IMG/VR virus record: IMGVR_UViG_2859783438_000005
Strand: one strand, 5' to 3'
Length of the DNA stretch: 37,940 nt
Source: a virus
Lineage: Duplodnaviria > Heunggongvirae > Uroviricota > Caudoviricetes
Shown here in pieces: positions 2,470 to 37,609 of the stretch (position 1 is the first letter of the stretch; each line of letters starts with the position of its first letter). A program made the position numbers and the translations under genes. The notes beneath the pieces are model-generated. The model was not told the DNA's origin, searched no databases, and saw nothing but the letters and a program-made list of their open reading frames with translations.

Positions 2470-2471
2470 AG

Positions 2472-4537: not shown

Positions 4538-4547
4538 CAGGTGCTTT

Positions 4548-4835: not shown

Positions 4836-4843
4836 AGGGCGTT

Positions 4844-5199: not shown

Positions 5200-5285
5200 C
5201 CGCGCAAATAAGACCCTAGGTTAAATAAGAAAATGTGAAAACAATCCGCATTCGCGGAGGTATTCGCACACGCCAAGGAGGCGTA

Positions 5286-19256: not shown

Positions 19257-19726
19257 AAGTGCGTTACATCCTGATGATGGCACTGACCGTCCTCACGCTG
19301 CTGACCATAACACTCTGGCAGACATTCAGACTGGGGCAGGAAGACGGACACAACCGTTATACACAGGCGCAACTGGACGATTACAGCCGGACCCTGAAAG
19401 AGGCCGGCACCATCATCAGCACCGCATCCGGTGTACTGCGTGACGTCATGACAGCGCGCCAGAACCGACAACAGGAAGGGGAAATCCGACGTGAACAGCT
19501 ACGCAACGATATCACGACAGATGCATGTGCCCGCGCTGTTCCTGACGCTCGCTTTACTGAGCGGTTGCACCAGCACGCAGAACGCGTCCGCGCCGCCGCC
19601 GTCGTTCCGTTTCATCCCGGAAGGGCTGACCGCCCCCGTACTTCCCCCGCCGTTTCCGGTGACGCCATCATGGGGAAACATCGGGATATGGAGCGACAGC
19701 CTCATGGACGCACTGGAAACCTGTAA
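19253..19726 (+). CDS. lysB: i-spanin (Rz/LysB-like)
   Basis: 157-aa ORF with N-terminal TM segment (ILMMALTVLTLLTITLW), GGAGG RBS, periplasmic charged/coiled region. Confidence 0.65.
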   Translation: MKVRYILMMALTVLTLLTITLWQTFRLGQEDGHNRYTQAQLDDYSRTLKEAGTIISTASGVLRDVMTARQNRQQEGEIRREQLRNDITTDACARAVPDARFTERLHQHAERVRAAAVVPFHPGRADRPRTSPAVSGDAIMGKHRDMERQPHGRTGNL

Positions 19727-19811
19727 CGCCGATAAGCGGGCCATTGAATTACTGGAACAGCGCAGGCTGCAACGACTGAACAACGAGGACAACAACCATG
19801 CTGAAAACTGA
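19491..19811 (+). CDS. lysC: o-spanin lipoprotein (Rz1/LysC-like), overlapping the i-spanin in the +1 frame
   Basis: signal peptide with lipobox (ALFLTLALLSGCTS), Pro-rich mature region; GTG start at 19491 has a good RBS, alternative ATG at 19521. Confidence 0.6.
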   Translation: MNSYATISRQMHVPALFLTLALLSGCTSTQNASAPPPSFRFIPEGLTAPVLPPPFPVTPSWGNIGIWSDSLMDALETCNADKRAIELLEQRRLQRLNNEDNNHAEN

Positions 19812-23243: not shown

Positions 23244-25214
23244 ATGAGAACCACAACACGAAAATTTAAAACCATTATCACCGATACGGGTGCAAAAAAA
23301 TTAGCGCAGGCAACCGCGCCAGATGGGAAACCTGTCCGCCTGACACATATGGCCGTGGGTGACGGCGGCGGTACTTTACCCACGCCAGACAGTAAGCAGA
23401 CCCGTCTTGTGCATGAGGTGTGGCGACATACCGTTAATCGCGTCACCCTGGACGCAACACATCAGAACCACATTATTGCGGAGCTGGTTATTCCTCCTGA
23501 AACGGGCGGATTCTGGATCCGGGAAATTGGTGTGTTTGATGAGCACGGCGATTTGATCGCGGTAGGCAATACTGCCGAAAGTTACAAGCCAACCGTTGCC
23601 GAAGGATCCGGACGTGCACAAACATTTCGCACCATTCTGACCGTATCCAGCACTGCCACTGTGGCGCTTACCGTGGATAACACCATGGTGATGGCCACAG
23701 TGAATTACGTGGATGACAAACTGAAAGAGCATGAACAGTCACGACGTCACCCGGACGCCTCGCTGACCGCAAAAGGCCTTGTCCAGCTCAGCAACGCCAC
23801 CAACAGCACGTCTGAAACGCTGGCAGCGACACCAAAAGCCGTTAAGGCAGTAATGGATGAAACGAACAAGAAAGCCCCATTAAACAGCCCGGCACTGACC
23901 GGAACGCCAACAACACCAACTGCGCGACAGGGAACGAATAATACCCAAATCGCAAGCACGGCTTTCGTTATGGCTGCGATTGCCGCACTTGTAGACTCTT
24001 CGCCTGATGCACTGAACACACTGAACGAGCTGGCGGCGGCGCTGGGCAACGACCCGAATTTTGCGACCACCATGACTAACGCGCTTGCGGGTAAGCAACC
24101 GAAAGATGCCACTCTGACGGCGCTGGCGGGGCTTGCTACTGCGGCAGACAGGTTTCCGTATTTTACGGGGAATGATGTCGCCAGCCTGGCAACCCTGACA
24201 AAAGTCGGGCGGGATATTCTTGCGAAATCGACCGTTGCCGCCGTTATCGAATACCTCGGTTTACAGGAAACGGTAAATCAGGCTTCTGGCGCATTACAGA
24301 AAAACCAGAACGGCGCAGATATTCCGGGGAAAGATACCTTCACCAAAAATATTGGTGCCTGCCGCGCATATAGCTCATGGCTGAATATTGGTGGCGATAG
24401 TCAGGTCTGGACAACCGCGCAATTTATTTCGTGGCTGGAGAGTCAGGGAGCATTTAACCATCCTTACTGGATGTGCAAAGGCTCATGGGCTTATGCAAAT
24501 AATAAGGTCATTACAGATACAGGTTGCGGAAATATTTGTCTTGCAGGTGCTGTGGTGGAAGTTATTGGCACTCGCGGCGCAATGACCATACGCGTTACCA
24601 CGCCGAGCACGTCCAGCGGTGGCGGAATTACTAACGCTCAATTCACTTATATTAATCATGGTGATGCTTACGCTCCTGGCTGGCGACGAGACTACAACAC
24701 GAAAAATCAACAACCTGCATTTGCTTTAGGGCAAACAGGAAGCACTGTCGGAAATGATAAAGCTGTTGGCTGGAACTGGAATAGCGGGGTCTATAACGCA
24801 AACATTGGTGGCGCATCGACATTAATCCTCCACTTCAATATGAATACGGGGAGCTGCCCTGCTGTACAGTTCCGCGTGAATTACAGGAACGGCGGTATTT
24901 TTTATCGTTCAGCGCGTGATGGTTATGGCTTTGAAGCTGACTGGTCAGAGTTTTACACCACAACCCGCAAACCCTCTGCGGGAGATGTTGGTGCATATAC
25001 GCAGGCAGAATGTAACTCAAGGTTTATTACAGGTATTCGCCTTGGTGGTCTGTTATCTGTTCAGACATGGAATGGTCCCGGATGGTCTGACAGGTCAGGT
25101 TATGTTGTTACCGGTTCCGTTAACTCAAACAGAGATGAACTAATTGATACAACTCAGGCAAGGCCAATTCAGTATTGCATTAATGGGACGTGGTATAACG
25201 CGGGGAGTATTTAA
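23244..25214 (+). CDS. H: tail fibre protein H: constant N-terminal part fused to the currently expressed variable C-terminal cassette
   Basis: 656-aa ORF; first ~340 aa closely resemble P2 H (GDGGG, ELVIPPE, EHEQSRRHPDASLTAKGLVQLSNATNSTSETLAATPKAVK...), then diverge after ...YLGLQETVN at the gix-like site. Confidence 0.9.
   Translation: MRTTTRKFKTIITDTGAKKLAQATAPDGKPVRLTHMAVGDGGGTLPTPDSKQTRLVHEVWRHTVNRVTLDATHQNHIIAELVIPPETGGFWIREIGVFDEHGDLIAVGNTAESYKPTVAEGSGRAQTFRTILTVSSTATVALTVDNTMVMATVNYVDDKLKEHEQSRRHPDASLTAKGLVQLSNATNSTSETLAATPKAVKAVMDETNKKAPLNSPALTGTPTTPTARQGTNNTQIASTAFVMAAIAALVDSSPDALNTLNELAAALGNDPNFATTMTNALAGKQPKDATLTALAGLATAADRFPYFTGNDVASLATLTKVGRDILAKSTVAAVIEYLGLQETVNQASGALQKNQNGADIPGKDTFTKNIGACRAYSSWLNIGGDSQVWTTAQFISWLESQGAFNHPYWMCKGSWAYANNKVITDTGCGNICLAGAVVEVIGTRGAMTIRVTTPSTSSGGGITNAQFTYINHGDAYAPGWRRDYNTKNQQPAFALGQTGSTVGNDKAVGWNWNSGVYNANIGGASTLILHFNMNTGSCPAVQFRVNYRNGGIFYRSARDGYGFEADWSEFYTTTRKPSAGDVGAYTQAECNSRFITGIRLGGLLSVQTWNGPGWSDRSGYVVTGSVNSNRDELIDTTQARPIQYCINGTWYNAGSI
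24253..24277. repeat. gix/hix-like recombination site A (left inverted repeat of the invertible fibre segment)
   Basis: acctcggtttacaggaaacggtaaa; the reverse complement recurs at 27310-27334; matches the Mu gix site as I recall it (TTCCTGTAAACCGAGG...). Confidence 0.7.
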
Positions 25215-25216
25215 CG

Positions 25217-25750
25217 ATGATGCACTTAAAAAACATTTCTGCTGGTAATCCTGAAACAAAAGAGCAATACCAGCTAACGAAACAATTTAACATCAAATGG
25301 CTTTATACAGAGGATGGGAAAAACTGGTATGAGGAACAAAAGAACTTTCAGCCTGATACGTTGAAAATGGTCTATGACCACAACGGCGTTATTATTTGTA
25401 TTGAAAAGGATGTTTCAGCAATTAATCCGGAAGGCGCAAGCGTCGTTGAGGTTCCTGATATTACAGCAAATCGCCGGGCTGATATTTCAGGTAAATGGAT
25501 GTTCAAAGATGGCGTAGTGATAAAGCGAACTTATACCGGGGAAGAGCAGAGGCAACAAGCGGAAAATGAAAAGCAAAGCCTGCTACAGCTCGTCAGGGAT
25601 AAAACCCAGCTATGGGACTCACAGCTACGGCTGGGCATTATTTCCGACGAGAATAAACAAAAATTAACCGAGTGGATGCTCTATGCGCAGAAGGTCGAAT
25701 CCACAGACACCTCCAGCCTGCCAGTAACGTTTCCCGAACAACCAGAATGA
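25217..25750 (+). CDS. G: tail fibre assembly protein (gpG/Tfa family), current orientation
   Basis: 177-aa ORF directly after H; paralogous to the minus-strand ORF 25779..26306 (MMHLKNI.AGN...[23 protein letters not shown]). Confidence 0.8.
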   Translation: MMHLKNISAGNPETKEQYQLTKQFNIKWLYTEDGKNWYEEQKNFQPDTLKMVYDHNGVIICIEKDVSAINPEGASVVEVPDITANRRADISGKWMFKDGVVIKRTYTGEEQRQQAENEKQSLLQLVRDKTQLWDSQLRLGIISDENKQKLTEWMLYAQKVESTDTSSLPVTFPEQPE

Positions 25751-25778
25751 AACAAGGCCCGATATCGGGCCTTAATTT

Positions 25779-26306
25779 TTACTCAGGCTTTTGTGGCCAT
25801 TCTGGCTTTGCCGTATCCACACGGCTGACCAGAACACTGTAGCGTTCCCATGCTTCCAGTCGTGTGCGTTCCTCGTCCGTCGCCATATTCAGCCTGACAG
25901 CGCGTTCCAGCGGCTGGATGACTGATTCAGCTTCGGAAAGCAATGCGGCCTTTTGTGATTCGGCCTGTTGTTGCTGTTCGTCAGCCGTATAAATCCGTTT
26001 AACCACAGCTCCGTCCTTAAACATCCACTTACCGGAATCATCAGCACGACGATTAGCTGTAATATCAGGAACCTCAACGACGCTATAACCTTCAGGGTTA
26101 AGCGTGGAGGCATCTTTGGTGATGGCGACAATAATATTATTTGCATCGTAAACAATCTTTATTGTGTCTGGCTGAAAGTTCTTCACTTCCTCATACCAGT
26201 TTTTTCCGTCCTCAGAGTAAAGCCAGATGACTCCGTGCTTCTTTGTTAACTCATACTGCTCCACTGTTTTAGCATTACCTGCTTTTATGTTCTTTAAGTG
26301 CATCAT
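25779..26306 (-). CDS. alternative tail fibre assembly protein (Tfa') of the inverted cassette
   Basis: track ORF 25779..26339 trimmed to Met [11 protein letters not shown]; paralogue of G. Confidence 0.7.
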
Positions 26307-26307
26307 A

Positions 26308-26949
26308 TTAAATACTCGCCACATTATACCAAGTGCCATTTATATACTTTTGCACTGGCCTGTAATGAACGCCTGCAATATTATCGGCAGAGTTTTTTCC
26401 GGTATCCTGTACGTTAATCCCCGTCAGTACATAGCCTGACGGGCACTGAAAATTCCATGTTTGCCAGTTGTTCACTCCATAATATTGCTGTGAACCAAGT
26501 CGAACATCTTTCACATATCTGGAATCAAAATTGCCATAGTTGCCGGGAATAACTTGCGAGCCGCAAAGCCAGTTCCCGTTATTATCCATGTACGCCTGAC
26601 CATCGGTGCCATTGGCTGTCCTTGAGTTATTAATCATGTAGATGCCAAATTGCTTATTTCCCAGACCGCCAATCATAAATTTGCGGTCGGCATGGTCCTG
26701 ACGGAGCAAAGCCTGAGCACCATCAGTGGATACCGCATTACGTCCCAAAATAACATTCTGGTCACGCATATGAATCCACATGCCGGTACTACTGTTAATT
26801 GCAAAACGGTTTGCAAATATATCCCCTGTAACATCAAGACCATGCCCCATGCTTATCCGGCCAGTTCTGAGATTAAGCGTAAAGGGGCGTAGTGGCCCTA
26901 TATTACCATTTTCCCCTTCATTCTCTCGTGTAGGATGATATGCAGGCAT
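26308..26949 (-). CDS. alternative tail fibre C-terminal receptor-binding cassette (H'v), promoterless; upstream part lies in another frame
   Basis: ends ...[16 protein letters not shown]...[16 protein letters not shown] as in the P2 H C-terminus; the 5' continuation to the gix site (26898..27309) is in a different frame. Confidence 0.55.
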
Positions 26950-27309
26950 TCTTCAGAACGACGAAAAATGGCACCAAAAGATGAATTAAATATCCTCAGT
27001 GCATTGACTGTCGATATTTTCACTTCACTGCTGAAAAGGGCTTCAACAAGAACAGACAAAGCATTCCATTTAAGATTCATCAGGTCTTTAGGCCGGGTGC
27101 CAATGATGCGGTGTCTCCATTTGAAATATTCATTGCCGTTGTTGCCTGTTTCAAACCACATGTAGGAATCGGTGTCTGCATCCGAATTATTTTTAAACCC
27201 AATCTTTGCCCAGTCAGTATTTCGAATCCAGGCAAGGATTGAGTCGTTTTCAAAAGTAAGTCCACCGGACAACGTATCGCCATTTTTTTGCACGGCGTTA
27301 CCAGCCTTG

Positions 27310-27334
27310 TTTACCGTTTCCTGTAAACCGAGGT
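27310..27334. repeat. gix/hix-like recombination site B (right inverted repeat), interrupted by IS insertion
   Basis: tttaccgtttcctgtaaaccgaggt; the rest of the predicted site (tagataa) is displaced to about 27850 beyond the IS. Confidence 0.65.
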
Positions 27335-27335
27335 T

Positions 27336-27846
27336 TGAGGTGTACTGGCAATAGCGGACACTACCATTTGTTCTTTTTTTAAGCAGCCATCTGATGATAT
27401 TTTTCCCTGAAGGCTGCCGGGGAGATATTCCCCAGACGAGAGTGACGACGCTGACGATTGTAGAAAATCTCAATGTATTCCCGTATTACTGAGATGGCTT
27501 CATCCCGGTTATTAAAACGATAGTGGCTCAGGCTCTCATTTTTCAGCGTTCCCCAGAAGCTTTCCATCGGAGCGNNNNNNNNNNNNNNNNNNNNNNNNNN
27601 NNNNNNNNNNNNNNNNNNNNNNNNNNNNNNNNNNNNNNNNNNNNNNNNNNNNNNNNNNNNNNNNNNNNNNNNNNAAGAGATAATCGGGAAGCGCCTTCAC
27701 TGATCGAAAGTTGATTTTCAAGAACCGTTCTGACAGCTTCGGCTTTGAACTCTTTAGAGTAACGTTGGGTTTTTCTGCTCATTATTAGCTCCTTCTGATG
27801 CCATTCTATTTCAGGAAGGAGTGTCCGTTAAACTCAGGCTACCTCA
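27336..27846 (-). mobile_element. IS3-family insertion sequence (IS600-like), interior unresolved by an assembly gap
   Basis: terminal inverted repeats tgaggtgtactggcaatagcggacactacc (27336-27365) and ggaaggagtgtccgttaaactcaggctacctca (27814-27846); 3-bp GTT direct repeats at 27333-27335 and 27847-27849; OrfA N-terminus MSRKTQRYSKEFKAEAVRTV and OrfB C-terminus ...FYNRQRRHSRLGNISPAAF on the minus strand. Confidence 0.7.
27575..27674. other. assembly gap (100 N)
   Basis: run of exactly 100 n inside the IS element; the true length of the missing sequence is unknown. Confidence 0.95.
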
Positions 27847-27911
27847 GTTTTAGATAATGGCCGTTTCCGGCCTGCATGGCATGATTTGCGCTTTTGGACG
27901 GGAGATTCAGC

Positions 27912-28499
27912 GTGCTGATTGGCTATGTAAGGGTATCAACAAATGACCAGAATACAGACCTGCAACGAAACGCTCTTGTTTGTGCAGGATGTGAACAAAT
28001 ATTTGAAGATAAATTAAGCGGGACAAAGACAGACCGACCGGGATTAAAACGCGCTTTAAAGCGCCTTCAAAAAGGTGACACGCTGGTTGTCTGGAAACTG
28101 GATCGCCTCGGGCGAAGCATGAAACATCTGATTTCTCTCGTCGGGGAACTACGGGAGCGAGGAATTAATTTTCGCAGTCTGACCGACAGCATAGATACAT
28201 CTTCTCCAATGGGGCGTTTTTTCTTCCACGTGATGGGTGCCCTGGCTGAAATGGAACGTGAATTAATTGTTGAACGTACACTGGCCGGACTGGCGGCAGC
28301 ACGCGCACGGGGGCGCACAGGCGGACGTCGACCGAAGCTGACAAAAGAACAGCATGAGCAAATAGCAAGGCTGATCAAAAACGGGCACGACAGAAAACAA
28401 CTGGCAATAATTTACGGCATTGGTATATCGACGATTTATCGTTACCACCCCGCAGGAGAATCAATCGGAACAATAGAGAAGAGTCAGGAAACAAAATAA
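27912..28499 (+). CDS. serine DNA invertase (Gin/Pin/Hin/Cin family)
   Basis: track ORF 27894..28499; from the GTG at 27912 the protein reads MLIGYVRVSTNDQNTDLQRNALVCAGCEQIFEDKLSG..., nearly identical to Gin/Pin as I recall them (catalytic Ser in VRVSTNDQ). Confidence 0.88.
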   Translation: MLIGYVRVSTNDQNTDLQRNALVCAGCEQIFEDKLSGTKTDRPGLKRALKRLQKGDTLVVWKLDRLGRSMKHLISLVGELRERGINFRSLTDSIDTSSPMGRFFFHVMGALAEMERELIVERTLAGLAAARARGRTGGRRPKLTKEQHEQIARLIKNGHDRKQLAIIYGIGISTIYRYHPAGESIGTIEKSQETK

Positions 28500-28530
28500 C
28501 CGCTAATCTGACCATTAGCGGTTTTTGTGT
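28498..28530 (+). terminator. rho-independent terminator after the invertase gene
   Basis: aaccgctaat-ctgacc-attagcggtt followed by tttgtgt. Confidence 0.5.
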
Positions 28531-28534
28531 TAAA

Positions 28535-29029
28535 TCAGAACAACCCTTTAACTGAACTGGCCGCGCTGTTAAGGGATGATGTTACCTTATCTTTGAAGCC
28601 GGACAGCATATCGCTGAACGATGAGGATTGCAGGCGCTCCCGCAAATCCTCATCACAGCGTTCAAGAGTCAGTGAAAATTCTATCTTTTTCGCCTTACCG
28701 TAGCGATCAAACTCGGAGCGGGTCGTATTCGTTTCGGTCAGGACATACATGCCGTAAATCTGCCCGACGCCATCAATCAGAGGCCAGGGTCGTCCTGTAT
28801 ACGCCTGCGTGGTCAGCAGCGACAGCGACACTTCGCCACCTGTAATTTCAGGATAAAGCACACCAGAAAGAACGATGCGCTCATCACCTGCACCGATATA
28901 CTGCCAGCTTGCCGAACGGTTAACGCGTTCATTTTTCACATGCCGCCAGCTTTTGTTTTGCTGTAACTGCTGATGCGGCAATGTACGCAGCTCAAAAACA
29001 AACATGCCGTAGATCATCATCATGGCCAT
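28535..29029 (-). CDS. U: tail protein U (P2 gpU family)
   Basis: 164-aa ORF; resembles P2 U as I recall it (MMM...FVF...SWRH...); start among several N-terminal Met. Confidence 0.75.
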   Translation of the reverse strand: MAMMMIYGMFVFELRTLPHQQLQQNKSWRHVKNERVNRSASWQYIGAGDERIVLSGVLYPEITGGEVSLSLLTTQAYTGRPWPLIDGVGQIYGMYVLTETNTTRSEFDRYGKAKKIEFSLTLERCDEDLRERLQSSSFSDMLSGFKDKVTSSLNSAASSVKGLF

Positions 29030-29035
29030 GACTCC

Positions 29036-31879
29036 TCAATCTTTATCGTAAAAACTGCCACGCCCGGCACGGGCGCGCCGTTCCATTTCTGCCCTGACCA
29101 TTTCACCGACCAGTTTCGCCAGTTCGCGGGGATTCTGCGTAACAACGTTATGCAGATGAACATGAATTTCACCACCAAATCCGGAGGCAACAGGCTCCCG
29201 GTTACGGGAAGTTACAGGAACTGATGCCACTGGAGAGCGTATGGCCTCCGCCACCGGGCGGGAGCTGGCCGCAACAACAGGGACCAGCGCCGGAGGCAGC
29301 GGAGCCGGGACCACGGGTGTGATATTAATTGCGGGGGCAGGCTTACTGACCTGCGCAATCTTCCGCTCCTGCCACTCCCCACGAACAGCAAGTGCGCGGG
29401 GCAGGTTCTTAAAGACAATATCGCCGGGGCCAATGCGTTTTTTCGTCTCATCAACCAGCTTACCTGTGTTATCAGCAATTTTGCTGAGTCTGCGTAGCGT
29501 CCCGGTATTGCTGTCTGTGAGCGGTTTGTTGTCTTTGGGTTTATCACCTCCGGTGCCATTGCCATTTTCCACAGGCTTCGGCGGATTGATTTTCGCCAGG
29601 TTCCCCTGAAGCAAGGCAACCTTGTCCTGAAGAATGGCCGCACGCTGTGCGTCTTCGATTTTCTTGCGCGCCCTTTCCGCTTCATCCGGAAGGACGCCAA
29701 GTTTTTCAAGTATCCACGCCAGCGTATCCAGTAGCATTTTTGCAGGTGTCAGAACAAGTTGTAACGCACCGCCAAGAACGTTACCGAATATCTCGCCAGC
29801 ACTGGCACATTTATCCAGCGTTTCCTTGCTGGACTCCATCGGTGACAGCAGCGATTTAAACCAGTTAAAGACCTGAATAATCCCATCGCGCACGACATCA
29901 AAAACAGGGCCAAACCGTTCAAAGGTTTCGCGCAACGGGGTCAGCCTTTCCATAATCCCGCTGAACACCCCGGCAAAAAATGCCCTGATGGGATCCCAGT
30001 ATTTCCAGATAAGAACGGCAGCTCCGGCAAGCGCAGCCACGATAAGACTAACCGGACTGAACAGCGCCCCGATAGCGCCACCAAGTAAAGAAACGGAACC
30101 CGTCACCATTCCCCATAATGCAGGCAGAACCCTGACAACATTCATTGATTCGGTCAGGAGAGAAAAACCGAGACGCAACGTAGCCAGCTTCCCGTGAAGC
30201 ACCCCAATAACCAGAGACAACGAACCAACCGTTGCTGTTGTCGCCAGCAGTGCGCCTCCCGCTATCAGTAACTGGCGCGTCAGTGCCGGGTGGGCCTGCG
30301 CCAGCGCCGTCACCTTTGAGACAACCCGCGTGAGCCACTGCGTGACAGAACGCAGCGGACCGTCAACCAGATCACTGATGCGAATACGCAGACCTTCCCA
30401 TGCACTGCCGAGTGATTTCAGGTTGCCATCAAGGTTATTGGCCATAACCTTTGCCGTGCGTTCTGCCTCACCGCGCGCGCCTTCAAGTTCTTTTCTCAGT
30501 TTGGCTAAGAAGCCGTCACCTGCCGCATCAACGAGGCCCATAAATGATGTGAAAGCCTCTTCTCCGGCAATGTCCTTAAAGAACGATACCCGGTCAACCT
30601 CCCCGTATTTGCGGGTGGCTTTATAGAGATCGGCCAGCACATTCTCCATCGGGCGCATTTTGCCTTTGGCGTCAGCAACTGACACCCCCAGCTCTTTCAG
30701 TGCTTCTGCCGCTGCCTTTGGCGGTGATGACAGATTGGCCAGGCTTTTACGCAACGCTGTACCTGCATCACTCCCCCTGATACCCATCTTCGCCAGCACG
30801 CCCGCCATCGCTGCGGCCTGCTCCAGCGATATTCCCAGCTTACCCGCCACCGGACCTGCATATTTCATGGTTTCGCCCAGTGCGCGAAGGTCAGTGTTGG
30901 TACGGGTAAACGCTGCGGTAAGTGTGTCACCGACCCGGTCCATCTGGTCAGCAGAGAGGCCGAACTGCGTCAGGATATTGGAACCAATATCCGCCGTCTC
31001 GCCGAGGTCCATACCGCCAGCCGTTGCCATGCTCAGCACGCCGGGAAGCGCAGCCTGAATGGCCTGCGGTGTGAAACCAGCCATTGCAAGAAATGCCTGT
31101 CCACTGGCGGCATCGCCTGCGGTGAACTGCGTTTCAGAGCCAAGTTTTAACGCCTGCTCACGCAGCGCCTTAAACTGCGGGCTGTTTTTATCGATTCGCG
31201 TCAGTGCCTGAACACGGGACATCTCTTTCCCGAACCCGATAGCGGGCTGCAAAAAACGCCCGGCAGCATAGCCGCCCGCTGCCGCCGCACCTGTTGCCAG
31301 CGCACCACCTGTTTTCAGTTTTCCCGCTGTTTCCTGCGCGCGTGAATACCGCTCACGCGCCTGCGTTACACGCGCAAGCGCCCGCCGTTCGCGTTCAAGC
31401 TGGTTGTTGTATTGTCCGGTGCGTCTGATGGCCTGCTGGATGGTGTTATCGCTGCCTGTCAGGGAAATGCCGTGGCGTTTCAGCTCTCCGCCAAGTTCCC
31501 GCATTTTCTGAATTTCCCGTGTGCGCGATTCATTCAGGCGTTCAAGCCGGGTGCTTAACTGCTGCATCAGCTTTTGTTGTTTTTCGCTGAGCACTGTACC
31601 CGTGCGTTGTAACTGATTAAGGGCGTTAAGCTGGCGTCGTGCTTTCACGATGCCCGCATCCGCTTTACTGACAGCGTCACGGGCGCGCTCAAATGAACGC
31701 GCCTGACGCTCGAGATTTTTGATCGCCCCCTGCGTTCGCTGGATGGAGTCACCAAACTGCCCCATCAGGCGGCGGGCGTTTTCGGCAGGCCGGGTCAGCC
31801 TGTCAACGGCGCTGAAAGCGACCCGGATATCAAGAGTCTTCATTGTCTGCATTCCCGCTGCGAAGTGCCGCCCGCTCAC
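29036..31879 (-). CDS. T: tail tape measure protein (P2 gpT family)
   Basis: 947-aa Ala/Gly-rich ORF with coiled-coil N-terminus and hydrophobic central region, directly downstream of E/E'; start uncertain (GTG 31879, ATG 31852 or 31843). Confidence 0.85.
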   Translation of the reverse strand: MSGRHFAAGMQTMKTLDIRVAFSAVDRLTRPAENARRLMGQFGDSIQRTQGAIKNLERQARSFERARDAVSKADAGIVKARRQLNALNQLQRTGTVLSEKQQKLMQQLSTRLERLNESRTREIQKMRELGGELKRHGISLTGSDNTIQQAIRRTGQYNNQLERERRALARVTQARERYSRAQETAGKLKTGGALATGAAAAGGYAAGRFLQPAIGFGKEMSRVQALTRIDKNSPQFKALREQALKLGSETQFTAGDAASGQAFLAMAGFTPQAIQAALPGVLSMATAGGMDLGETADIGSNILTQFGLSADQMDRVGDTLTAAFTRTNTDLRALGETMKYAGPVAGKLGISLEQAAAMAGVLAKMGIRGSDAGTALRKSLANLSSPPKAAAEALKELGVSVADAKGKMRPMENVLADLYKATRKYGEVDRVSFFKDIAGEEAFTSFMGLVDAAGDGFLAKLRKELEGARGEAERTAKVMANNLDGNLKSLGSAWEGLRIRISDLVDGPLRSVTQWLTRVVSKVTALAQAHPALTRQLLIAGGALLATTATVGSLSLVIGVLHGKLATLRLGFSLLTESMNVVRVLPALWGMVTGSVSLLGGAIGALFSPVSLIVAALAGAAVLIWKYWDPIRAFFAGVFSGIMERLTPLRETFERFGPVFDVVRDGIIQVFNWFKSLLSPMESSKETLDKCASAGEIFGNVLGGALQLVLTPAKMLLDTLAWILEKLGVLPDEAERARKKIEDAQRAAILQDKVALLQGNLAKINPPKPVENGNGTGGDKPKDNKPLTDSNTGTLRRLSKIADNTGKLVDETKKRIGPGDIVFKNLPRALAVRGEWQERKIAQVSKPAPAINITPVVPAPLPPALVPVVAASSRPVAEAIRSPVASVPVTSRNREPVASGFGGEIHVHLHNVVTQNPRELAKLVGEMVRAEMERRARAGRGSFYDKD

Positions 31880-32359
31880 GCCAGCTAACCACTTCGCCGG
31901 GCGTCATCATGAAGATTTCGGCGGGCGACCAGTTAAAAATGGCGGCAATATCCGCCACAAAGTCTTCTATGTGCTCAAAGCACACAACCGTGATCAGGCT
32001 TCCGTCGCCTGTTCGTTCTTCTCGCCAGAGTCCGCACCGCTCAAAAAATTTACGGCAACCACACATAACTGAATAAAGTCACGGGATGCCATTTTTTTGA
32101 TCGTCACTTCATCCAGTCGCGGTGATGTCACGCGTGACAGCAGCGTAAACATGGATTCCGCTTTCAAATTCAGCACATCAGACAGCGACAAATCTCGCAG
32201 AGATCCAGCCTGCTCAATAGCCCCGGTGATCTCCACATACGTGATTTTTTCGCCGCCTCGCTCAATTGGTTGGGTAAGTTTTACGCCACGCTCACTGGTT
32301 TCTTTCACAGTGTCAGCAACGACCGTGTTTTCGGTATCGATGTTTTTCGTCTCTTTCAT
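31830..32359 (-). CDS. tail assembly chaperone E+E' fusion made by programmed -1 ribosomal frameshift
   Basis: slippery site TTTTTTG (plus-strand caaaaaa at 32042-32048); the -1 frame continues as ...FFERCGLWREERTGDGSLITVVCFEHIEDFVADIAAIFNWS... to a stop at 31830, overlapping the T start. Confidence 0.55.
31994..32359 (-). CDS. E: tail assembly chaperone E
   Basis: 121-aa ORF between FII and T; contains a T6G slippery heptamer near its 3' end. Confidence 0.7.
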   Translation of the reverse strand: MKETKNIDTENTVVADTVKETSERGVKLTQPIERGGEKITYVEITGAIEQAGSLRDLSLSDVLNLKAESMFTLLSRVTSPRLDEVTIKKMASRDFIQLCVVAVNFLSGADSGEKNEQATEA

Positions 32360-32413
32360 CAGGAAACTCCTTTCAGTCAGAGGCGACGCACTGCGCCGCC
32401 TGCATATTACTTA

Positions 32414-32926
32414 TCAGCCAAGCCCGAGCGCGGAACGGATGCGATCGGGCACAATGTCCCTGCCGTCCTTCCGGTAAATGAAGTTCAGCAGGTCAATCTC
32501 CCACAACGGGCGATCGTTAACACTCAGCTTGTAGTAGGTGTTTTTAATGGCGTAAGTGTGTGATGTGGCTTCGCCCTGTTTGGCTTCCCCCATATCAATT
32601 TCCGTCACACGTCCGCGCATTTCGACTTCATACAGGTCGCTTTCAGCGTCGGTGTAGTATTCACCCGCAAAACGCAGCAGCGTACCGTCAATCGTGCCGC
32701 CATACTTAAGGAACAGCTCACGAACTGCGCCCCCCATGACAAAGCTCGCATCAAGCGCGGAGTCATCCAGGCCGAGATCAATACTTACCGCTCCCATCAT
32801 GCCACCACCCCGGTAGCTGTCGGTTTTGCGCGTCAGCTTAGGCAGAGTGACGGACGTCACCTTACCCACTTCGTTTTCACCATCCACAAACAGCGTAAAA
32901 AAGCGAAGATGTTTTGGTACAGCCAT
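32414..32926 (-). CDS. FII: tail tube protein (P2 gpFII family)
   Basis: 170-aa ORF immediately downstream of FI. Confidence 0.85.
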   Translation of the reverse strand: MAVPKHLRFFTLFVDGENEVGKVTSVTLPKLTRKTDSYRGGGMMGAVSIDLGLDDSALDASFVMGGAVRELFLKYGGTIDGTLLRFAGEYYTDAESDLYEVEMRGRVTEIDMGEAKQGEATSHTYAIKNTYYKLSVNDRPLWEIDLLNFIYRKDGRDIVPDRIRSALGLG

Positions 32927-34110
32927 CAGGCACCTCCCAGCACCGCAAATGCGGGACCAAAGAATTCATCAGTAAACGACTGGTAAAGCTCCATGTCTTC
33001 CAGCGGGGGAACAGGCGTATATTTGTAGCGAATACGCACGCGCCCCTGACGTAAATTCGTGGTGCCGTTATCCACCACGTCATACCAGCACGACGCCCCA
33101 ATCAGTTTCCCGGCAGTAACCAGTGAATCCAGTTTTGCCCTGATGGCACCGATAACATCCTTCACGTTCGCAGGCGTCAGTGGACTGTCGATGGTTTCAA
33201 ACTGCGCTTCCGCAATTGAATCAGCCAGCACCTGTGCGGTTCGGGTATACACCTCAAAGATGTAGGCGTTCGTTTCCGGTGTGCGGTTGCCCCAGAAGCG
33301 GAACCCGTTGCGACGAATAATGGTCGTGATTTCTTTGTTGTTGAGGCTGTTGGCATCACTGTCTTCGGCCTGCAACGACCAGAACACATGCCTGGACATC
33401 CCCAGCACATTTTTAACCGGAACGTTGGACAGCGATTTGTGCCAGCCCTGCTCATGGTCAATGTACGCACGAAGGCCGCACGCATAGGCAGGCGCGGGGA
33501 ACGTTTCGTTTTTGCCACTTTTCGGGTTGTAGGCGATGAAGTCCGGCCATAAGAGCATCACCTCACGTTCGTTGAATTTCTGGCGGTAGGTAATTGCCTC
33601 AGCCATCGTGTTACAGTCATGACATGAGGCATACACAAACGCGCGCAGTTTACCCGCAATCACGCACAGGGATTTTGTCACCGCCTCCGTGTCCAGCTCC
33701 GGCGCGGCCAGAATACGCGGACGGTATCCGATGCTTTCATCCTGCTCTGCAACAAGCAGCGCATACATCCCCGTATAGCTGCCGTCAGATTCAGAACCAC
33801 CGATAACCAGTTGATCCTGCGTTTTTCCGTCTTCTTCTTTGTGTTCAGCCACGCGAACGACGATCACCTTTGTGCTCACCTGGTCTGCGATGGCCTTAAG
33901 CGCACGATAAAGCGTCCCCGTTGTTCCGCATTTTCCCAGCACGTCATTGACGCGGGGCAGCAGTGTGGGCTTGTTCAGCGGGAACAGCTCCGCGTCCGCA
34001 TCATCCGCCGTTGCCACGATACCGATAACGCTGGAATCAACATCGTTAATCGCTGTTACCAGGTCGGTATTTTCCGTAACACGGGCACCATGAAAACGAG
34101 TTTCACTCAT
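32926..34110 (-). CDS. FI: tail sheath protein (P2 gpFI family)
   Basis: 394-aa ORF; conserved blocks shared with P2 FI (DADAE.FPLNKP, QKLRAF, WPDF, EQGWHK.LSNV, IRR.GFRFWGNRT, YTRTAQV.AD, YTPVPPLE); AAGGGG RBS. Confidence 0.9.
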   Translation of the reverse strand: MSETRFHGARVTENTDLVTAINDVDSSVIGIVATADDADAELFPLNKPTLLPRVNDVLGKCGTTGTLYRALKAIADQVSTKVIVVRVAEHKEEDGKTQDQLVIGGSESDGSYTGMYALLVAEQDESIGYRPRILAAPELDTEAVTKSLCVIAGKLRAFVYASCHDCNTMAEAITYRQKFNEREVMLLWPDFIAYNPKSGKNETFPAPAYACGLRAYIDHEQGWHKSLSNVPVKNVLGMSRHVFWSLQAEDSDANSLNNKEITTIIRRNGFRFWGNRTPETNAYIFEVYTRTAQVLADSIAEAQFETIDSPLTPANVKDVIGAIRAKLDSLVTAGKLIGASCWYDVVDNGTTNLRQGRVRIRYKYTPVPPLEDMELYQSFTDEFFGPAFAVLGGA

Positions 34111-34267
34111 AGCTTCAACCCCTTGTATCCGTTAAATGATTCGGCAACAATCATCACCCACCACGCGCGTAATCTCACCCCTGCGCCATTCTCCCGCCAC
34201 GGCGACAACAAAAAGCAGTAACCCCCTCCGCACGCACATGCGACCATGCCACACAGGGAGGGAGCAG

Positions 34268-35377
34268 ATGACCGACACCACCATGCAATTGCTCAGTCAG
34301 GGCACAGACCCCGTGAAAATGCCGGATTTTGATATTCTCGCGGAGGGTAAAACGCTGTCAGGCGTGGCAGAGCGCCTGATGAGCCTGTCACTGACCGACA
34401 ACCGGGGATTTGAGGCGGACCAGCTCACCATCACGCTGGATGATGCGGATGGTCAGTTGCAGCTACCGCCACGGGGCGCGCGCCTGACGGTTCTCATTGG
34501 CTGGAAGGGAGAACCGCTGACAGAAAAAGGCACTTACATTGTTGATGAAATCGCTCACGAAGGACCGCCGGACAGGCTGACTGTTTCAGCCAGAAGCGCA
34601 GATTTTCGGGCTGAATTTAACGTTAAACGTGAGGTGTCCTGGCATGATGTGACCGTTGAGCGTGTGGTATCCGCCATCGCTCATCGGTATGGTCTGAAAC
34701 CGCAAATCAGCGAAATGCTGATGGATATCGAAATCGACCACGCCGACCAGACCGAAGAAAGCGACATGTCCTTCCTTACGCGCATGGCGGAAATGCTGGG
34801 CGCAATCACCACGGTAAAAAGCGGTAATCTGTTATTCATCATGCCCGGTGGTGGCGTGAACGCACAGGGCCAGCCGTTGCCCTCGTTCGCCATCACACGC
34901 AGCAGCGGCGATCGCCATCAGTTCCGCATTGCTGACCGCGAAGCGTATACGGGGGTACGCGCTTACTGGCTTGATCTTAATTACGGGAAAAAGAAAAAAG
35001 TCAGCGTGAAACGCCGCAAACCGTCAAAACCAAAAAAGGAGAAAAGCAGCAGCCGGGAAGGCGACTATATGGAAGGTGCGGAAGGCAACGTGTTTGTGTT
35101 ACGCAAAACTTATCAGAACGAGCAGGCAGCAAGACGTGCAGCGGCGGCAAAGTGGCAGCAGCTACAACGCGGAGCCGCATCATTCTCCATCACACTGGCG
35201 CATGGACGTGCAGAACTCTACCCCGAAATGCATGGCACGGTAACAGGATTTAAAAGCGAGATTGATAATCAGGACTGGATTATTGCAAAAGCCGAGCACA
35301 CCATTGATAACAGCGGCTTTACCACGCAGCTTGAGCTTGAGGCAAAAATCCCGGAATGGATAGCAGAAACAGAGTGA
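34268..35377 (+). CDS. D: tail protein D (late control gene D family)
   Basis: track ORF 34136..35377 trimmed to Met MTDTTMQLLSQGTDPV preceded by an AGGGAGGGAG RBS; about 369 aa. Confidence 0.85.
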   Translation: MTDTTMQLLSQGTDPVKMPDFDILAEGKTLSGVAERLMSLSLTDNRGFEADQLTITLDDADGQLQLPPRGARLTVLIGWKGEPLTEKGTYIVDEIAHEGPPDRLTVSARSADFRAEFNVKREVSWHDVTVERVVSAIAHRYGLKPQISEMLMDIEIDHADQTEESDMSFLTRMAEMLGAITTVKSGNLLFIMPGGGVNAQGQPLPSFAITRSSGDRHQFRIADREAYTGVRAYWLDLNYGKKKKVSVKRRKPSKPKKEKSSSREGDYMEGAEGNVFVLRKTYQNEQAARRAAAAKWQQLQRGAASFSITLAHGRAELYPEMHGTVTGFKSEIDNQDWIIAKAEHTIDNSGFTTQLELEAKIPEWIAETE

Positions 35378-35539
35378 GCAACTTAAATGTATTAACTCAG
35401 AACGGATCAACACACTCACAACATAGAGTCAATATAGCTGCTCGCTTTGTTCCAGCAAGGATGCCTATTTCTAAGGAAAAACAGAGCAGAAACATATGGT
35501 GTTTTCCTACCTGACATCAGGGGTGGTAAGAATCATGCT

Positions 35540-35567
35540 TTGATAACCAATTGATAACTATTATTAT
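35540..35567 (+). promoter_or_regulatory. candidate sigma-70 promoter for the PIN-like island gene
   Basis: TTGATA - about 16 nt - TATTAT in AT-rich DNA, about 35 nt upstream of the start; GAGG RBS at 35594-35597. Confidence 0.3.
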
Positions 35568-35602: not shown

Positions 35603-37105
35603 ATGAACAAAAAGCTGTATTTATTCCCAGACTCAAACATTTTTCTACAATGCAAGGACTTGACGCAGGTAAATTTTTCCGAGATTACTGCTTGTGATGA
35701 AGTATGTATCATTATTACAAGGCCCATTCAGCAAGAGATTGACCGCCAGAAAGGGCAAGGTAATTCCCGCCTATCCAAAAAAGCAAGGAAGGCTGCTAGC
35801 CTATTTAATCAAGTAGTTGATTCAACTGACATGACTCTTGTTATTCGTGAACGCTCGCCGCGAGTTTTTCTTACCATGGATCTAAGCCTGAAACCATGTG
35901 AACAGTTATCTGAACAATTGGATTATCAGGAGGCCGACGATCGTTTTGTTGGTATTGCGGCAGGGTATTGCGCTGACGATCCAGATTCGGAGGTGGCAAT
36001 CATTACCAATGATAGCGGTCCACGTTTTTCAGCAATAAAACATAATATAATCTGCTATAAAGTGCCTTCTTCATGGTTGCTTCCTGCTGAGCCAGATGAA
36101 AAGGATAAACAAATTAAATTGCTGGAAGCTAAGCTGAAGCAATTCACTCAGTCTATGCCCGATTTCAGCATTAAAGTAGCCGATGACGAGCAATTAAATA
36201 TTGTACTTCCTTATTATACAGCTTTATCTGAATATGAAGTTGATAATTTGCTTTGTCAACTAACGGATGCATTCCCATTGGTTACAAACTTTGACAATGA
36301 ACAAACTACCCCACAATCACTAGAAAAAATCATCAAGTCATTTAGTCAACAGGAGTATTTCCCTGTATCAGCAGATGATATTTCTCTTTATAAAGAAAAA
36401 CATTATCCACTTTGGAAAAAGCAGTGTGAAGAAATACTGAAAAACTGTCATACTCATATTAATCCGAAGGCAATAAATTACCCGCTGTCGTTTTTATTAC
36501 AAAACACAGGTTATACTATCGCTGAACGTGCTGTGGTAACATTTACAGCAAAAGGAGATTTTCGTCTGTGTGGATTTAATTGGGAGATAATGGAAGAGCT
36601 GACTGAAAGCAAAAGGATTGACCTACCTTCAGCCCCTACCGCCCCCAAAGGAAAATGGCGTAGTGTATGTGGCGTAACAGAAAGAATGCCTTACGCTGGG
36701 GGAGCTTTGGAAACACCGCTATCCAGTATAATTTCAAAAGAAATTGGTCCTTTGTTATCTCTTACTCCAACAGAAAGGGATAAAAACGATTTTTATTATA
36801 AAGAAAAGAGAAATGAGCCAGTTCAAGTTGTATCGCTGGAATGCGAAGAGTGGCGTCATCAAGTCAAAGAAGAAATATTCCCGTTGTTCGTATATACAGC
36901 CAACAAACCAAAGAAAGTGAATGGTGCAATTGAGGTGAGAGTTGATGCAAATAACCTTACCAATCCGGTCATTAAAACATTTAAATTAAAAATAACTATA
37001 GAAGAACATAGTGCATTTTCAACCATAACAGAAATGGTGCAGACATACATTCAAGAGCAGAAGAAAAGACAGAAAAGTTCTATTAGCGCACAAATCAAAA
37101 CATGA
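35603..37105 (+). CDS. 500-aa protein with PIN-like N-terminal domain (putative nuclease) and unrecognised C-terminal domain
   Basis: single long ORF in markedly AT-rich DNA; N-terminal ~150 aa show a PIN-like layout of conserved acidic positions (YLFPDSNIFL ... TRPIQQEIDRQ ... DD ... IITNDSGPR). Confidence 0.6.
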   Translation: MNKKLYLFPDSNIFLQCKDLTQVNFSEITACDEVCIIITRPIQQEIDRQKGQGNSRLSKKARKAASLFNQVVDSTDMTLVIRERSPRVFLTMDLSLKPCEQLSEQLDYQEADDRFVGIAAGYCADDPDSEVAIITNDSGPRFSAIKHNIICYKVPSSWLLPAEPDEKDKQIKLLEAKLKQFTQSMPDFSIKVADDEQLNIVLPYYTALSEYEVDNLLCQLTDAFPLVTNFDNEQTTPQSLEKIIKSFSQQEYFPVSADDISLYKEKHYPLWKKQCEEILKNCHTHINPKAINYPLSFLLQNTGYTIAERAVVTFTAKGDFRLCGFNWEIMEELTESKRIDLPSAPTAPKGKWRSVCGVTERMPYAGGALETPLSSIISKEIGPLLSLTPTERDKNDFYYKEKRNEPVQVVSLECEEWRHQVKEEIFPLFVYTANKPKKVNGAIEVRVDANNLTNPVIKTFKLKITIEEHSAFSTITEMVQTYIQEQKKRQKSSISAQIKT

Positions 37106-37348: not shown

Positions 37349-37609
37349 ATGTTCCGTTGTCCGCTTTGTGGCGCATCTGCCCGTATCCGCACCAGTCGTC
37401 CGGAAAATGATTCAAACACCGTGCGGCAAAAGTATTACCAGTGTAACAATCTGGAATGCGGCGTATGCTTCTCAACACTGGAAGCTTTCCATAAATTCAC
37501 ATCAAAACACGCCTCCGGCGTTCACTCTTCAGAAGATATCCCGTGGCATGATCTGCCAGCTTCACACAGGGGAAACAATCAGATGAGCTTGCCTTTACCT
37601 CAGAATTAA
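37349..37609 (+). CDS. ogr: late gene transcriptional activator, zinc-finger (Ogr/Delta family)
   Basis: 86-aa ORF MFRCPLCGASARIRTSR...YYQCNNLECGVCF, matching the Ogr CPLC...RTSR...QC.N..C zinc-finger pattern; AGGGAGG RBS. Confidence 0.85.
   Translation: MFRCPLCGASARIRTSRPENDSNTVRQKYYQCNNLECGVCFSTLEAFHKFTSKHASGVHSSEDIPWHDLPASHRGNNQMSLPLPQN

What the first reader, a model, noticed from the sequence alone, without database searches (positions are those of the whole stretch)
28500..34267. Tail sheath/tube/chaperone/tape-measure/U block is inverted relative to D and to canonical P2 gene order
FI, FII, E/E', T and U (28535-34110) are all on the minus strand, while H, G, the invertase, D and ogr are on the plus strand. 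In P2 and relatives FI-FII-E-T-U-D form one co-directional operon. The block here is internally intact and correctly ordered, so a 5.6-kb inversion with breakpoints in the short intergenic intervals 28500-28535 and 34111-34267 best explains it. D would then be detached from the late promoter upstream of FI. It lies next to a site-specific invertase and an IS, and the region includes an assembly gap, so it could be a real rearrangement or a scaffolding error.
Basis: partly seen in the sequence, partly recalled or inferred. Interest (0 to 1): 0.55.

Follow-up and report, generated by a model that had tools for sequence, protein, structure and literature searches.

The report
Normal gene order of P88-like prophages
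The "inverted" tail sheath/tube/tape-measure block is real, but it is the standard, long-fixed gene order of P88-like (Xuanwuvirus) and related P2-family phages that make working virions, so it is neither a recent rearrangement nor an assembly error.

Summary
U, T, E/E', FII and FI (28535-34110) lie on the minus strand, between the invertase (+) and D (+).

Both junctions lie in uninterrupted sequence. The only gap (27575-27674) sits inside an IS600 copy about 0.9 kb to the left.

The same layout is found in:
- phage P88 and the other Xuanwuvirus records, at 94-99% junction identity;
- 1355 of 5426 complete E. coli genomes;
- 80 of 80 IMG/VR relatives;
- 19 of 19 informative prophage loci from other Enterobacterales genera (22 were retrieved);
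- four further ICTV genera (Senquatrovirus, Reginaelenavirus, Novemvirus, Reipivirus) and Serratia phage KSP20.

P88, phiSM and SEN4/5 are reported to make infectious virions. Relatives whose D protein is 53% identical or less (Cartapus, KP12, P2) keep the canonical order. The block therefore reflects one old inversion that now marks a Peduoviridae sublineage.

No gix-like sites or inverted repeats flank the block, and most members of the lineage lack the invertase.

D is not orphaned from late control. The 157-bp FI|D spacer carries one conserved dyad, T(G/C)T-N12-ACA, placed 34 nt from a -10-like hexamer on each side. This matches the geometry of P2's shared pP/pO activator site. I infer divergent Ogr-dependent promoters for FI-U and for D. 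Interest is low.

The parts
27894..28499 (+). Gin/Hin-type serine DNA invertase, convergent with U
   Evidence: PHROG_125 DNA invertase, E=1e-96. 97.8% nucleotide identity to the P88 invertase|U junction.
28498..28523 (.). Bidirectional intrinsic-terminator-like hairpin between the invertase stop and the U stop (left junction of the block)
   Evidence: 10-bp stem with a T-run on both strands; inverted repeat 28490-28507/28514-28531.
28535..29029 (-). gpU tail protein
   Evidence: Pfam Phage_P2_GpU, E=8e-39; PHROG_76.
29036..31843 (-). gpT tape-measure protein (start at 31843 taken from P88 homology; the longest ORF runs to 31879)
   Evidence: PHROG_28. tblastn of P88 T residues 1-936 aligns to 31843-29036 at 96%.
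31830..32359 (-). gpE (31994-32359) and its frameshift extension E' (ORF 31830-32066), with a TTTTTTG slippery run at about 32042-32048
   Evidence: PHROG_103; overlapping ORFs; slippery run read from the sequence.
32414..32926 (-). gpFII tail tube
   Evidence: PHROG_55, E=2e-59. PHROG labels this family 'head closure', but the P2 record calls the homologue FII.
32926..34110 (-). gpFI tail sheath
   Evidence: PHROG_23 tail sheath, E=4e-124.
34111..34267 (.). FI|D divergent control region (right junction of the block)
   Evidence: 157 bp, aligned across 21 loci. It contains the dyad and two -10-like hexamers listed below.
34190..34207 (.). Predicted shared Ogr-type activator dyad TCT-N12-ACA, centred at 34198.5
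   Evidence: T(G/C)T-N12-ACA was found by the pattern search in 23 of 24 loci searched; L014 did not match the strict pattern. Highest information content in the spacer. Same dyad type as at window P|O (14790-14807) and homologous to P2 pF/pP-pO sites.
34150..34155 (-). Predicted -10 hexamer of leftward promoter P_FI (GATGAT on the minus strand); predicted start near 34143
   Evidence: Lies 34 nt from the dyad. The .A...T pattern is present at this offset in 16 of 17 non-redundant loci and is rare at other offsets (at most 5 of 17).
34242..34247 (+). Predicted -10 hexamer of rightward promoter P_D (GACCAT); predicted start near 34254
   Evidence: Lies 34 nt from the dyad. The .A...T pattern is present at this offset in 14 of 17 loci, plus 3 at offset 35. 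It is preceded by the conserved CGCGCGCG motif also seen at window pP.
34268..35377 (+). gpD baseplate hub/spike protein, with its own strong Shine-Dalgarno sequence (GGGAGGGAG)
   Evidence: Pfam Phage_GPD; PHROG_52, E=1e-166, aligned from residue 43 of the longer ORF; P88 annotation starts at the equivalent ATG.

Best explanation
The window holds a P88-like (genus Xuanwuvirus, family Peduoviridae) prophage with the gene order that is normal for its lineage: ...H G (+) | U T E'/E FII FI (-) | D ogr (+).

One old inversion of the FI-to-U segment occurred in the ancestor of a sublineage of enterobacterial P2-like phages. That sublineage now includes Xuanwuvirus, Senquatrovirus, Reginaelenavirus, Novemvirus, Reipivirus and Serratia phage KSP20. 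The inversion split the P2 'F operon' into two transcription units.

How I think it works:
- The 157-bp FI|D spacer acts as a bidirectional late promoter.
- A single Ogr/Delta-type activator dyad (T(G/C)T-N12-ACA, 34190-34207) is centred about 55.5 nt upstream of both predicted start sites: near 34143 leftward for FI-FII-E/E'-T-U, and near 34254 rightward for D.
- This is the arrangement P2 uses for its divergent pP/pO pair.
- The leftward operon ends at a bidirectional terminator (28498-28523) shared with the convergent invertase gene.

What is shown: the gene order, its conservation across many genomes, contiguity with P88, and the conserved motif geometry. What is inferred: the transcription start sites, dependence on Ogr, and a single origin for the inversion.
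For: - Gene identities and strands.
- Junctions are contiguous at 94-99% identity in 11-13 Xuanwuvirus phage records. The P88 annotation has the identical layout.
- One colinear 7.5-kb blastn alignment runs from 27847 to 35385 against P88.
- The FI|D junction is intact in 1355 of 5426 complete E. coli genomes.
- 80 of 80 IMG/VR loci show FI(-)|D(+).
- All 19 GTDB species-representative loci with enough flank, from about 14 Enterobacterales genera (D 64-98% identical, T down to about 27%), show the same order. Most have no invertase.
- SEN5, Kp4871-3, phiT5282H, ST16-OXA48phi5.4 and KSP20 have the same order.
- Phages whose D is 53% identical or less (Cartapus, KP12, P2) are canonical.
- Virions are functional: P88 is mitomycin-inducible and forms plaques (PMC5285337); phiSM is spontaneously released and lysogenises K-12 (PMC6456863); SEN4/5 produces myovirus particles (PMC5261728).
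- Promoter model: the P2 record annotates one activator site (3057-3087) for both pO and pP, with start sites 3127 and 3016. Both are 55.5 nt from the dyad centre.
- The window and 22 other related loci carry one dyad, with -10-like hexamers about 34 nt away on both sides (34 in most, 35 in a few).
- In an offset scan, the .A...T pattern peaks at offset 34 on both sides (14 of 17 and 16 of 17) and is rare elsewhere (at most 5 of 17), although the spacers have a median identity of only 49%.
- The information profile peaks at the dyad halves and the -10 positions.
- The window's own P|O spacer has the same dyad (14790-14807) and the same CGCGCGCG-plus-(-10) arrangement.
- An Ogr/Delta zinc-finger gene is present at 37349-37609.
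Against: - No transcript data exist for any member of this lineage, so the start sites and Ogr dependence of P_D and P_FI are predictions.
- The dyad in the window is TCT-N12-ACA, not the textbook TGT-N12-ACA. The strict pattern has no hit at any late promoter here. However, P2's own mapped sites are also imperfect.
- The loci are phylogenetically related, so the conservation counts are not independent observations.
- A single origin for the inversion is inferred from the gap in D identity (62% or more versus 53% or less) and from the shared spacer architecture. It is not based on a rooted family-wide phylogeny.
- I found no paper that discusses this gene order. Casjens & Grose 2016 could not be read.
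Confidence: 0.85

Rival explanations
1. A recent 5.6-kb inversion occurred in this particular genome or prophage and possibly disabled tail production.
For: The order differs from P2. The prophage does show other damage: an IS600 insertion and single-base deletions in A and Q.
Against: The same order, with near-identical junction sequence, is found in P88 and the other Xuanwuvirus records, in 1355 complete E. coli genomes, in 80 of 80 IMG/VR loci, and in diverged genera with only 62-80% D identity. Phages with this order form plaques (PMC5285337, PMC6456863).
Confidence: 0.01
2. A scaffolding or assembly artefact: a contig was placed in the wrong orientation at the 100-N gap.
For: The window contains a 100-N gap next to a repeated IS element.
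Against: The gap (27575-27674) lies inside IS600 (27336-27846). Both block junctions (28.5 kb and 34.2 kb) are on the same uninterrupted stretch to its right, so flipping that stretch would still leave FI and D divergent. The sequences flanking the two IS ends rebuild one 26-bp gix site with a 3-bp GTT target duplication, which shows that the join is correct. The stretch is colinear with P88 in a single alignment.
Confidence: 0.01
3. The FI-U block is a programmed invertible segment flipped by the adjacent Gin-like invertase, or was created by invertase action at pseudo-gix sites.
For: The invertase gene directly abuts the block. In the canonical relative Cartapus, the invertase sits directly upstream of FI.
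Against: Only two gix sites exist in the window, at 24253-24270 and 27317-27334. Both flank the tail-fibre segment. No matching inverted repeats occur at 28.5 and 34.2 kb. None of more than 100 related loci shows the other orientation. Most clade members (Senquatrovirus, Novemvirus, Reipivirus, Reginaelenavirus and most of the GTDB loci) have no invertase near the block. The real substrate, the tail-fibre segment, is indeed flipped relative to P88. An ancient invertase-catalysed origin cannot be strictly excluded.
Confidence: 0.02
4. The gene order is ancestral to the clade, as in the best explanation, but D is expressed differently: from an Ogr-independent sigma-70 promoter. The conserved dyad would then serve only P_FI.
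For: The rightward -10 hexamers (GACCAT, GATCCT) are weaker matches than the leftward ones (GATTAT). The consensus scan found no canonical sigma-70 promoter in the spacer at all, so the promoter assignment rests on geometry alone.
Against: The right-hand spacing to the dyad is as tightly conserved as the left-hand spacing (14 of 17 at offset 34, plus 3 at 35). The CGCGCGCG-plus-(-10) block upstream of D closely resembles the window's own pP promoter. Activator-dependent P2 late promoters characteristically lack good -35 elements. The bidirectional terminator at 28498-28523 and 5.6 kb of antisense sequence make read-through from upstream unlikely.
Confidence: 0.12

Closest known systems
Escherichia phage P88 (NC_026014; Xuanwuvirus P88) and other Xuanwuvirus records (P884B11, 500465-2, 520873, 503458, PhiR44_2, Chuche, Citrobacter phage phiSM)
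   Same: Identical gene order and strands from H through ogr. Junctions are 94-99% identical. There is one colinear 7.5-kb alignment across invertase-U...FI-D. About 78% identity-weighted coverage of the P88 genome.
   Different: The window copy carries IS600 inside gixR. Its tail-fibre invertible segment is in the opposite orientation. It has a 1.5-kb PIN-domain cargo gene between D and ogr. It has single-base deletions in A and Q.
Bacteriophage P2 F operon (FI FII E E' T U D, promoter pF)
   Same: The same seven gene products in the same internal order (45-50% identity for FI, U and D; 32-42% for FII, E and T). There is an E/E' frameshift site. The activator dyad upstream of FI is homologous in sequence to the P2 pF site (GGTTGTG...CAAC).
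   Different: In P2 all seven genes are co-directional, D overlaps U, and one promoter serves them all. Here FI-U point leftward, and D points rightward with its own ribosome-binding site and its own predicted promoter.
Bacteriophage P2 divergent late promoters pP/pO with one shared Ogr-binding site
   Same: A single dyad lies midway between two divergent late units. There are 34 nt from the dyad to each -10 hexamer, so the dyad centre is about 55.5 nt from both (predicted) start sites. In P2 the mapped starts are 3016 and 3127 around the site at 3057-3087.
   Different: In P2 this design is found at the P|O (head-gene) junction. Here the same design is also used at FI|D. Start sites and Ogr binding are experimentally established for P2 and only predicted here.
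Escherichia phage Cartapus (Elveevirus), the closest canonical-order relative sampled
   Same: It has the same H-G-G'-H'-invertase tail-fibre switch module upstream of the tail genes, and D is 53% identical.
   Different: FI FII E T U D ogr all follow the invertase on the same strand. U and D overlap, as in P2.
Gin/Cin/Pin/Hin invertible segments (Mu G, P1 C, e14 P)
   Same: The window does contain one. The tail-fibre segment 24253-27334 is bounded by inverted 26-bp gix-type sites next to a Gin-like invertase, and it is flipped relative to P88.
   Different: The FI-U block is not such a segment. It has no flanking crossover sites and no orientation polymorphism.

Membership tests
Peduoviridae (P2-like) prophage | P2-type late gene set and layout (Q P divergent from O N M L..., baseplate V W J I, fibres H G, tail FI FII E T U D) plus an Ogr/Delta zinc-finger activator | tested here: met
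   ORF map; PHROG/Pfam hits for FI, FII, E, T, U, D, G and Ogr_Delta; colinear with P88 over 29.3 of its 35.8 kb.
Genus Xuanwuvirus (P88-like) | At least 70% nucleotide identity over genome length to a genus member (ICTV genus criterion, stated from my own knowledge) | tested here: met
   blastn against P88 aligns 29,283 of 35,814 bases, giving an identity-weighted fraction of 0.78. This is a rough calculation in one direction only, not VIRIDIC.
Genus Xuanwuvirus (P88-like) | Layout invertase(+) | U T E FII FI (-) | D (+) | tested here: met
   P88 annotation. Junction matches in 11-13 Xuanwuvirus records.
Site-specific invertible DNA segment (Gin/Hin type), considered for the FI-U block | Inverted crossover (gix/hix-type) sites at both ends of the segment | tested here: not met
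   The 18-nt gix core, allowing up to 3 mismatches, occurs only at 24253 and 27317. No junction-spanning inverted repeat stands out from the other short, imperfect pairs in the list.
Site-specific invertible DNA segment (Gin/Hin type), considered for the FI-U block | Both orientations are found among close relatives or within populations | tested here: not met
   80 of 80 IMG/VR loci, all 19 informative GTDB loci and all phage records checked have FI(-)|D(+).
P2-type bidirectional Ogr-dependent late promoter (pP/pO design), considered for the FI|D spacer | One dyad of TGT-N12-ACA type located about 55 nt upstream of both divergent start sites | tested here: inconclusive
   The sequence geometry is met and conserved: the dyad at 34190-34207 has a -10-like hexamer 34 nt away on each side, identical to the P2 pP/pO spacing. 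The start sites themselves are not known.
P2-type bidirectional Ogr-dependent late promoter (pP/pO design), considered for the FI|D spacer | Transcription depends on the Ogr/Delta activator binding to the dyad | not testable with these tools
   An ogr homologue is present. Binding and activation need experiments.

The most novel reading that the evidence does not exclude
The inversion was not neutral. By moving D to the far side of the pF activator site, it created a second bidirectional late promoter of the P2 pP/pO type. This uncoupled synthesis of the baseplate hub/spike protein D from sheath, tube and tape-measure synthesis. Such rewiring could explain why the order became fixed across at least five Peduoviridae genera. 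This shared-dyad P_FI/P_D promoter was not described in any paper I could find and read.
Probability: 0.3. Interest if true: 0.35.

Novelty: already known. Interest (0 to 1): 0.15.

Why it matters
The main value is as a correction. The feature should not be flagged as a misassembly, a fresh rearrangement or a sign of a tail-defective prophage. "Canonical P2 order" is not universal within Peduoviridae. The FI-U orientation relative to D cleanly separates a large enterobacterial sublineage, present in about a quarter of complete E. coli genomes, from P2, Cartapus and KP12 among the canonical-order phages I checked directly, so it is a convenient synteny marker. A secondary, modest point is the predicted shared-dyad promoter. 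It gives a directly testable account of how the split F operon stays under Ogr control, and it reuses the design P2 already employs at pP/pO.

Tried and rejected
- The strict TGT-N12-ACA search found only 2 hits in the window, none at a late promoter and fewer than chance. Relaxing it to TST-N12-ASA gave 23 hits, no more than chance overall. The motif is therefore meaningful only through its position and its conservation across loci.
- A search for gix-like sites or inverted repeats at the two junctions found nothing beyond chance-level pairs. One example is the 26-nt, 77% complementary pair 28224/34293, which lies inside coding sequence.
- The sigma-70 consensus scan found no promoter in the FI|D spacer. 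This is expected for activator-dependent late promoters.
- Literature searches for an explicit description of this gene order found none. I checked papers on P88, Xuanwuvirus, SEN4/5 and phiSM, plus a 2026 P2-hotspot paper.
- Casjens & Grose 2016 (Virology 496:255), the likeliest place for such a description, is not held.
- No P_V-like dyad was found upstream of R (19640-19800), so I make no claim about that promoter.
- PADLOC gave no hit for the 500-aa cargo ORF.
- I did not use the large protein searches, structure prediction or RNA tools, because the question was settled by synteny.
Full report
**Observation**

| Gene | Coordinates | Strand |
|---|---|---|
| H | 23244-25214 | + |
| G | 25217-25750 | + |
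| Gin-type invertase | 27894-28499 | + |
| U | 28535-29029 | - |
| T | 29036-31843 | - |
| E, with E' extension | 31994-32359; 31830-32066 | - |
| FII | 32414-32926 | - |
| FI | 32926-34110 | - |
| D | 34268-35377 | + |
| ogr | 37349-37609 | + |

The E/E' overlap holds a TTTTTTG slippery run. In P2 itself, FI-FII-E-E'-T-U-D-ogr are co-directional and are annotated as one operon driven from pF. So the block really is inverted relative to P2, and it is internally intact.

**Not an assembly artefact**

The window has one N run, at 27575-27674. It lies inside an IS600 copy at 27336-27846. This is shown by an IS3-family OrfA HTH domain, by 100% identity to annotated IS600 in thousands of E. coli records, and by the terminal inverted repeats at 27336-27362 and 27820-27846.

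The DNA on the two sides of the IS reads ...TTCCTGTAAACCGAGGTT | IS | GTTTTAGATAA.... Together these form a single 26-bp gix-type site with a 3-bp GTT target duplication. The scaffold join is therefore correct.

Both junctions of the block (28.5 kb and 34.2 kb) lie on the same uninterrupted stretch to the right of the gap. No re-orientation of contigs could make FI and D co-directional.

**Not a recent rearrangement**

- Both junctions are contiguous at 94-99% identity in 11-13 phage records of genus Xuanwuvirus: P88, P884B11, 500465-2, 520873, 503458, PhiR44_2, Chuche and Citrobacter phiSM.
- The RefSeq annotation of P88 shows the identical layout.
- A whole-region blastn against P88 gives one colinear 7.5-kb alignment, window 27847-35385, at 96.5% identity.
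- The only segment reversed relative to P88 is the tail-fibre segment at 24240-27334.
- The FI|D junction is intact in 1355 of 5426 complete E. coli genomes.
- All 80 IMG/VR loci retrieved with the D protein have FI(-)|D(+).

**How far the arrangement extends**

The D protein retrieved 22 loci from GTDB species representatives: Salmonella, Edwardsiella, Kluyvera, Erwinia, Enterobacter, Mixta, Pantoea, Kosakonia, Citrobacter, Izhakiella, Brenneria, Klebsiella, Rouxiella and Trabulsiella. D identity in these loci is 64-98%, and T identity falls to about 27%.

Every one of the 19 loci with enough upstream flank has the order U T E FII FI (-) | D ogr (+). Most have no invertase.

Among deposited phages the same order is seen in:
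- Senquatrovirus SEN5;
- Reginaelenavirus Kp4871-3;
- Novemvirus phiT5282H;
- Reipivirus ST16-OXA48phi5.4;
- the Serratia phage KSP20 fragment.

Phages whose D is 53% identical or less have the canonical order: Elveevirus Cartapus, the P2-like sequence in the KP12 record and P2. The D identity distribution has a gap between 62% and 53% that coincides with the change in orientation.

The Burkholderia P2-like phages tabulated in PMC3091744 are also canonical, and the canonical state is what I recall for phiCTX and HP1 (not checked here). The inverted state is therefore most simply read as one derived event in the ancestor of this enterobacterial sublineage.

**Function**

Three members of the lineage are reported to make working virions:
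- P88 is mitomycin-inducible and forms plaques (PMC5285337).
- phiSM is spontaneously released, forms plaques and lysogenises K-12 strains (PMC6456863).
- SEN4/5 produces myovirus particles with lytic activity (PMC5261728).

**Role of the invertase**

The invertase has its normal substrate. Inverted gix sites at 24253-24270 (inside H) and 27317-27334 bracket the alternative H-C-terminus/G cassettes, and that segment is flipped relative to P88.

No further gix-like site exists anywhere in the window, even allowing three mismatches. No inverted repeat that stands out from the other short, imperfect pairs links the two block junctions. About half of the near-identical relatives, and most of the distant ones, lack the invertase. 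I see no evidence that the invertase or the IS has anything to do with the block.

**How D is expressed**

The evidence points the other way.

The P2 record annotates a single activator-binding site (3057-3087) for both divergent promoters pP and pO. Their mapped start sites are 3016 and 3127. The dyad centre (3071.5) is 55.5 nt from each start.

I aligned the FI|D spacers of 21 loci and anchored them on the one conserved dyad, T(G/C)T-N12-ACA (34190-34207 in the window). Almost every locus shows a -10-like hexamer 34 nt to the left (GATTAT or GATGAT, read toward FI) and another 34 nt to the right (GATCCT, GACCAT or AATCAT, read toward D). L014 did not match the strict dyad pattern.

In an offset scan over 17 non-redundant loci, whose spacers have a median identity of only 49%, the .A...T pattern peaks at offset 34 and is rare elsewhere. 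It occurs there in 16 of 17 loci on the left, and in 14 of 17 on the right with 3 more at offset 35. Information content peaks at the dyad halves and at the -10 positions.

The window's own P|O spacer has the same dyad (14790-14807). It also has the same CGCGCGCG-plus-(-10) block for pP, and the O start agrees with the P88 annotation at 14880.

With this geometry the predicted start sites are about 34143 on the minus strand (FI operon) and about 34254 on the plus strand (D). D's ATG at 34268 is preceded by GGGAGGGAG. The leftward operon ends at a 10-bp-stem hairpin with T-runs on both strands (28498-28523), which it shares with the convergent invertase gene.

My inference is that the FI|D spacer is a second bidirectional, Ogr-dependent late promoter built like P2 pP/pO. 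The start sites and the dependence on the activator remain untested.

**Comparison with what is known, and novelty**

The window is a further copy of a Xuanwuvirus (P88-like) prophage, with roughly 78% identity-weighted coverage of P88. Its gene order has been visible in public records for years, including KSP20, P88 and SEN4/5.

I found no paper that comments on the order. The most likely source, Casjens & Grose 2016, could not be read. The shared-dyad promoter model is a small new inference on top of a well-known design.

**Verdict**

Interest is low.

Noticed in passing
window 27336-27846 (gap 27575-27674 inside it); gixR halves at 27317-27335 and 27847-27857: An IS600 copy, collapsed around the 100-N gap, is inserted inside the right half-site of the tail-fibre switch's gixR. 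It has a 3-bp GTT target duplication, 4-6 bp from the crossover dinucleotide. This probably locks the tail-fibre inversion switch in its present orientation.
   Followed up: partly
window 24240-27334: The gix-bounded tail-fibre segment (variable H C-terminus plus G, and the alternative pair on the minus strand) is in the opposite orientation to that in the P88 record, at 90.9% identity in reverse. This segment, not the FI-U block, is the real substrate of the invertase.
   Followed up: partly
window about 8170 (gene A, 6244-9065) and about 12102 (gene Q, 11929-12974): Relative to P88, both the replication endonuclease A and the portal Q are split by single-base deletions in C runs (CCC to CC, and CCCCC to CCCC). 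These are either homopolymer sequencing errors in a draft assembly or real inactivating mutations in a decaying prophage.
   Followed up: partly
window 35603-37105 (+), with a sigma-70-like promoter at 35540-35567: A 500-aa ORF of low G+C (about 37-44%) is inserted between D and ogr. It has an N-terminal PIN_4 domain (E=4.5e-8) and no PHROG or PADLOC hit. P88 has no such gene here. It looks like a moron or possible defence cargo gene at a D|ogr insertion point. The Salmonella-like locus L003 also has an insert of about 1.5 kb there.
   Followed up: partly
L103 (IMGVR_UViG_2654587728_000014), 1-5612: This is the one IMG/VR relative with a disturbed left end. T is truncated after residue 455. 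It is followed by an invertase copy (+, 82% identical), and further left by a second invertase copy (-) and U on the plus strand. This looks like a local rearrangement or chimera involving invertase genes. FI|D is still normal.
   Followed up: no
L003 (Vagococcus sp. WN89Y) and L020 (Planococcaceae MAG UBA3378): These contigs are labelled as Firmicutes but carry a D gene 98% identical to this E. coli-type prophage, and L003 also carries the whole tail block. Contamination or mis-binning of those assemblies is the likely explanation.
   Followed up: no
L001 (P88, NC_026014) 34476-34733: tblastn finds an intact ogr homologue (99% identical) just downstream of D in P88, where the RefSeq record annotates no CDS. 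In SEN5 the ogr region is annotated as a short minus-strand 'hypothetical protein' (locus 10253-10372), although the homology is on the plus strand (10141-10374).
   Followed up: no
window 19640-19800: No Ogr-type dyad was seen upstream of R, and S/V overlap. The head, lysis, baseplate and fibre genes (O through G, about 11 kb) may therefore form one long late operon here, unlike P2, which has a separate pV promoter.
   Followed up: no
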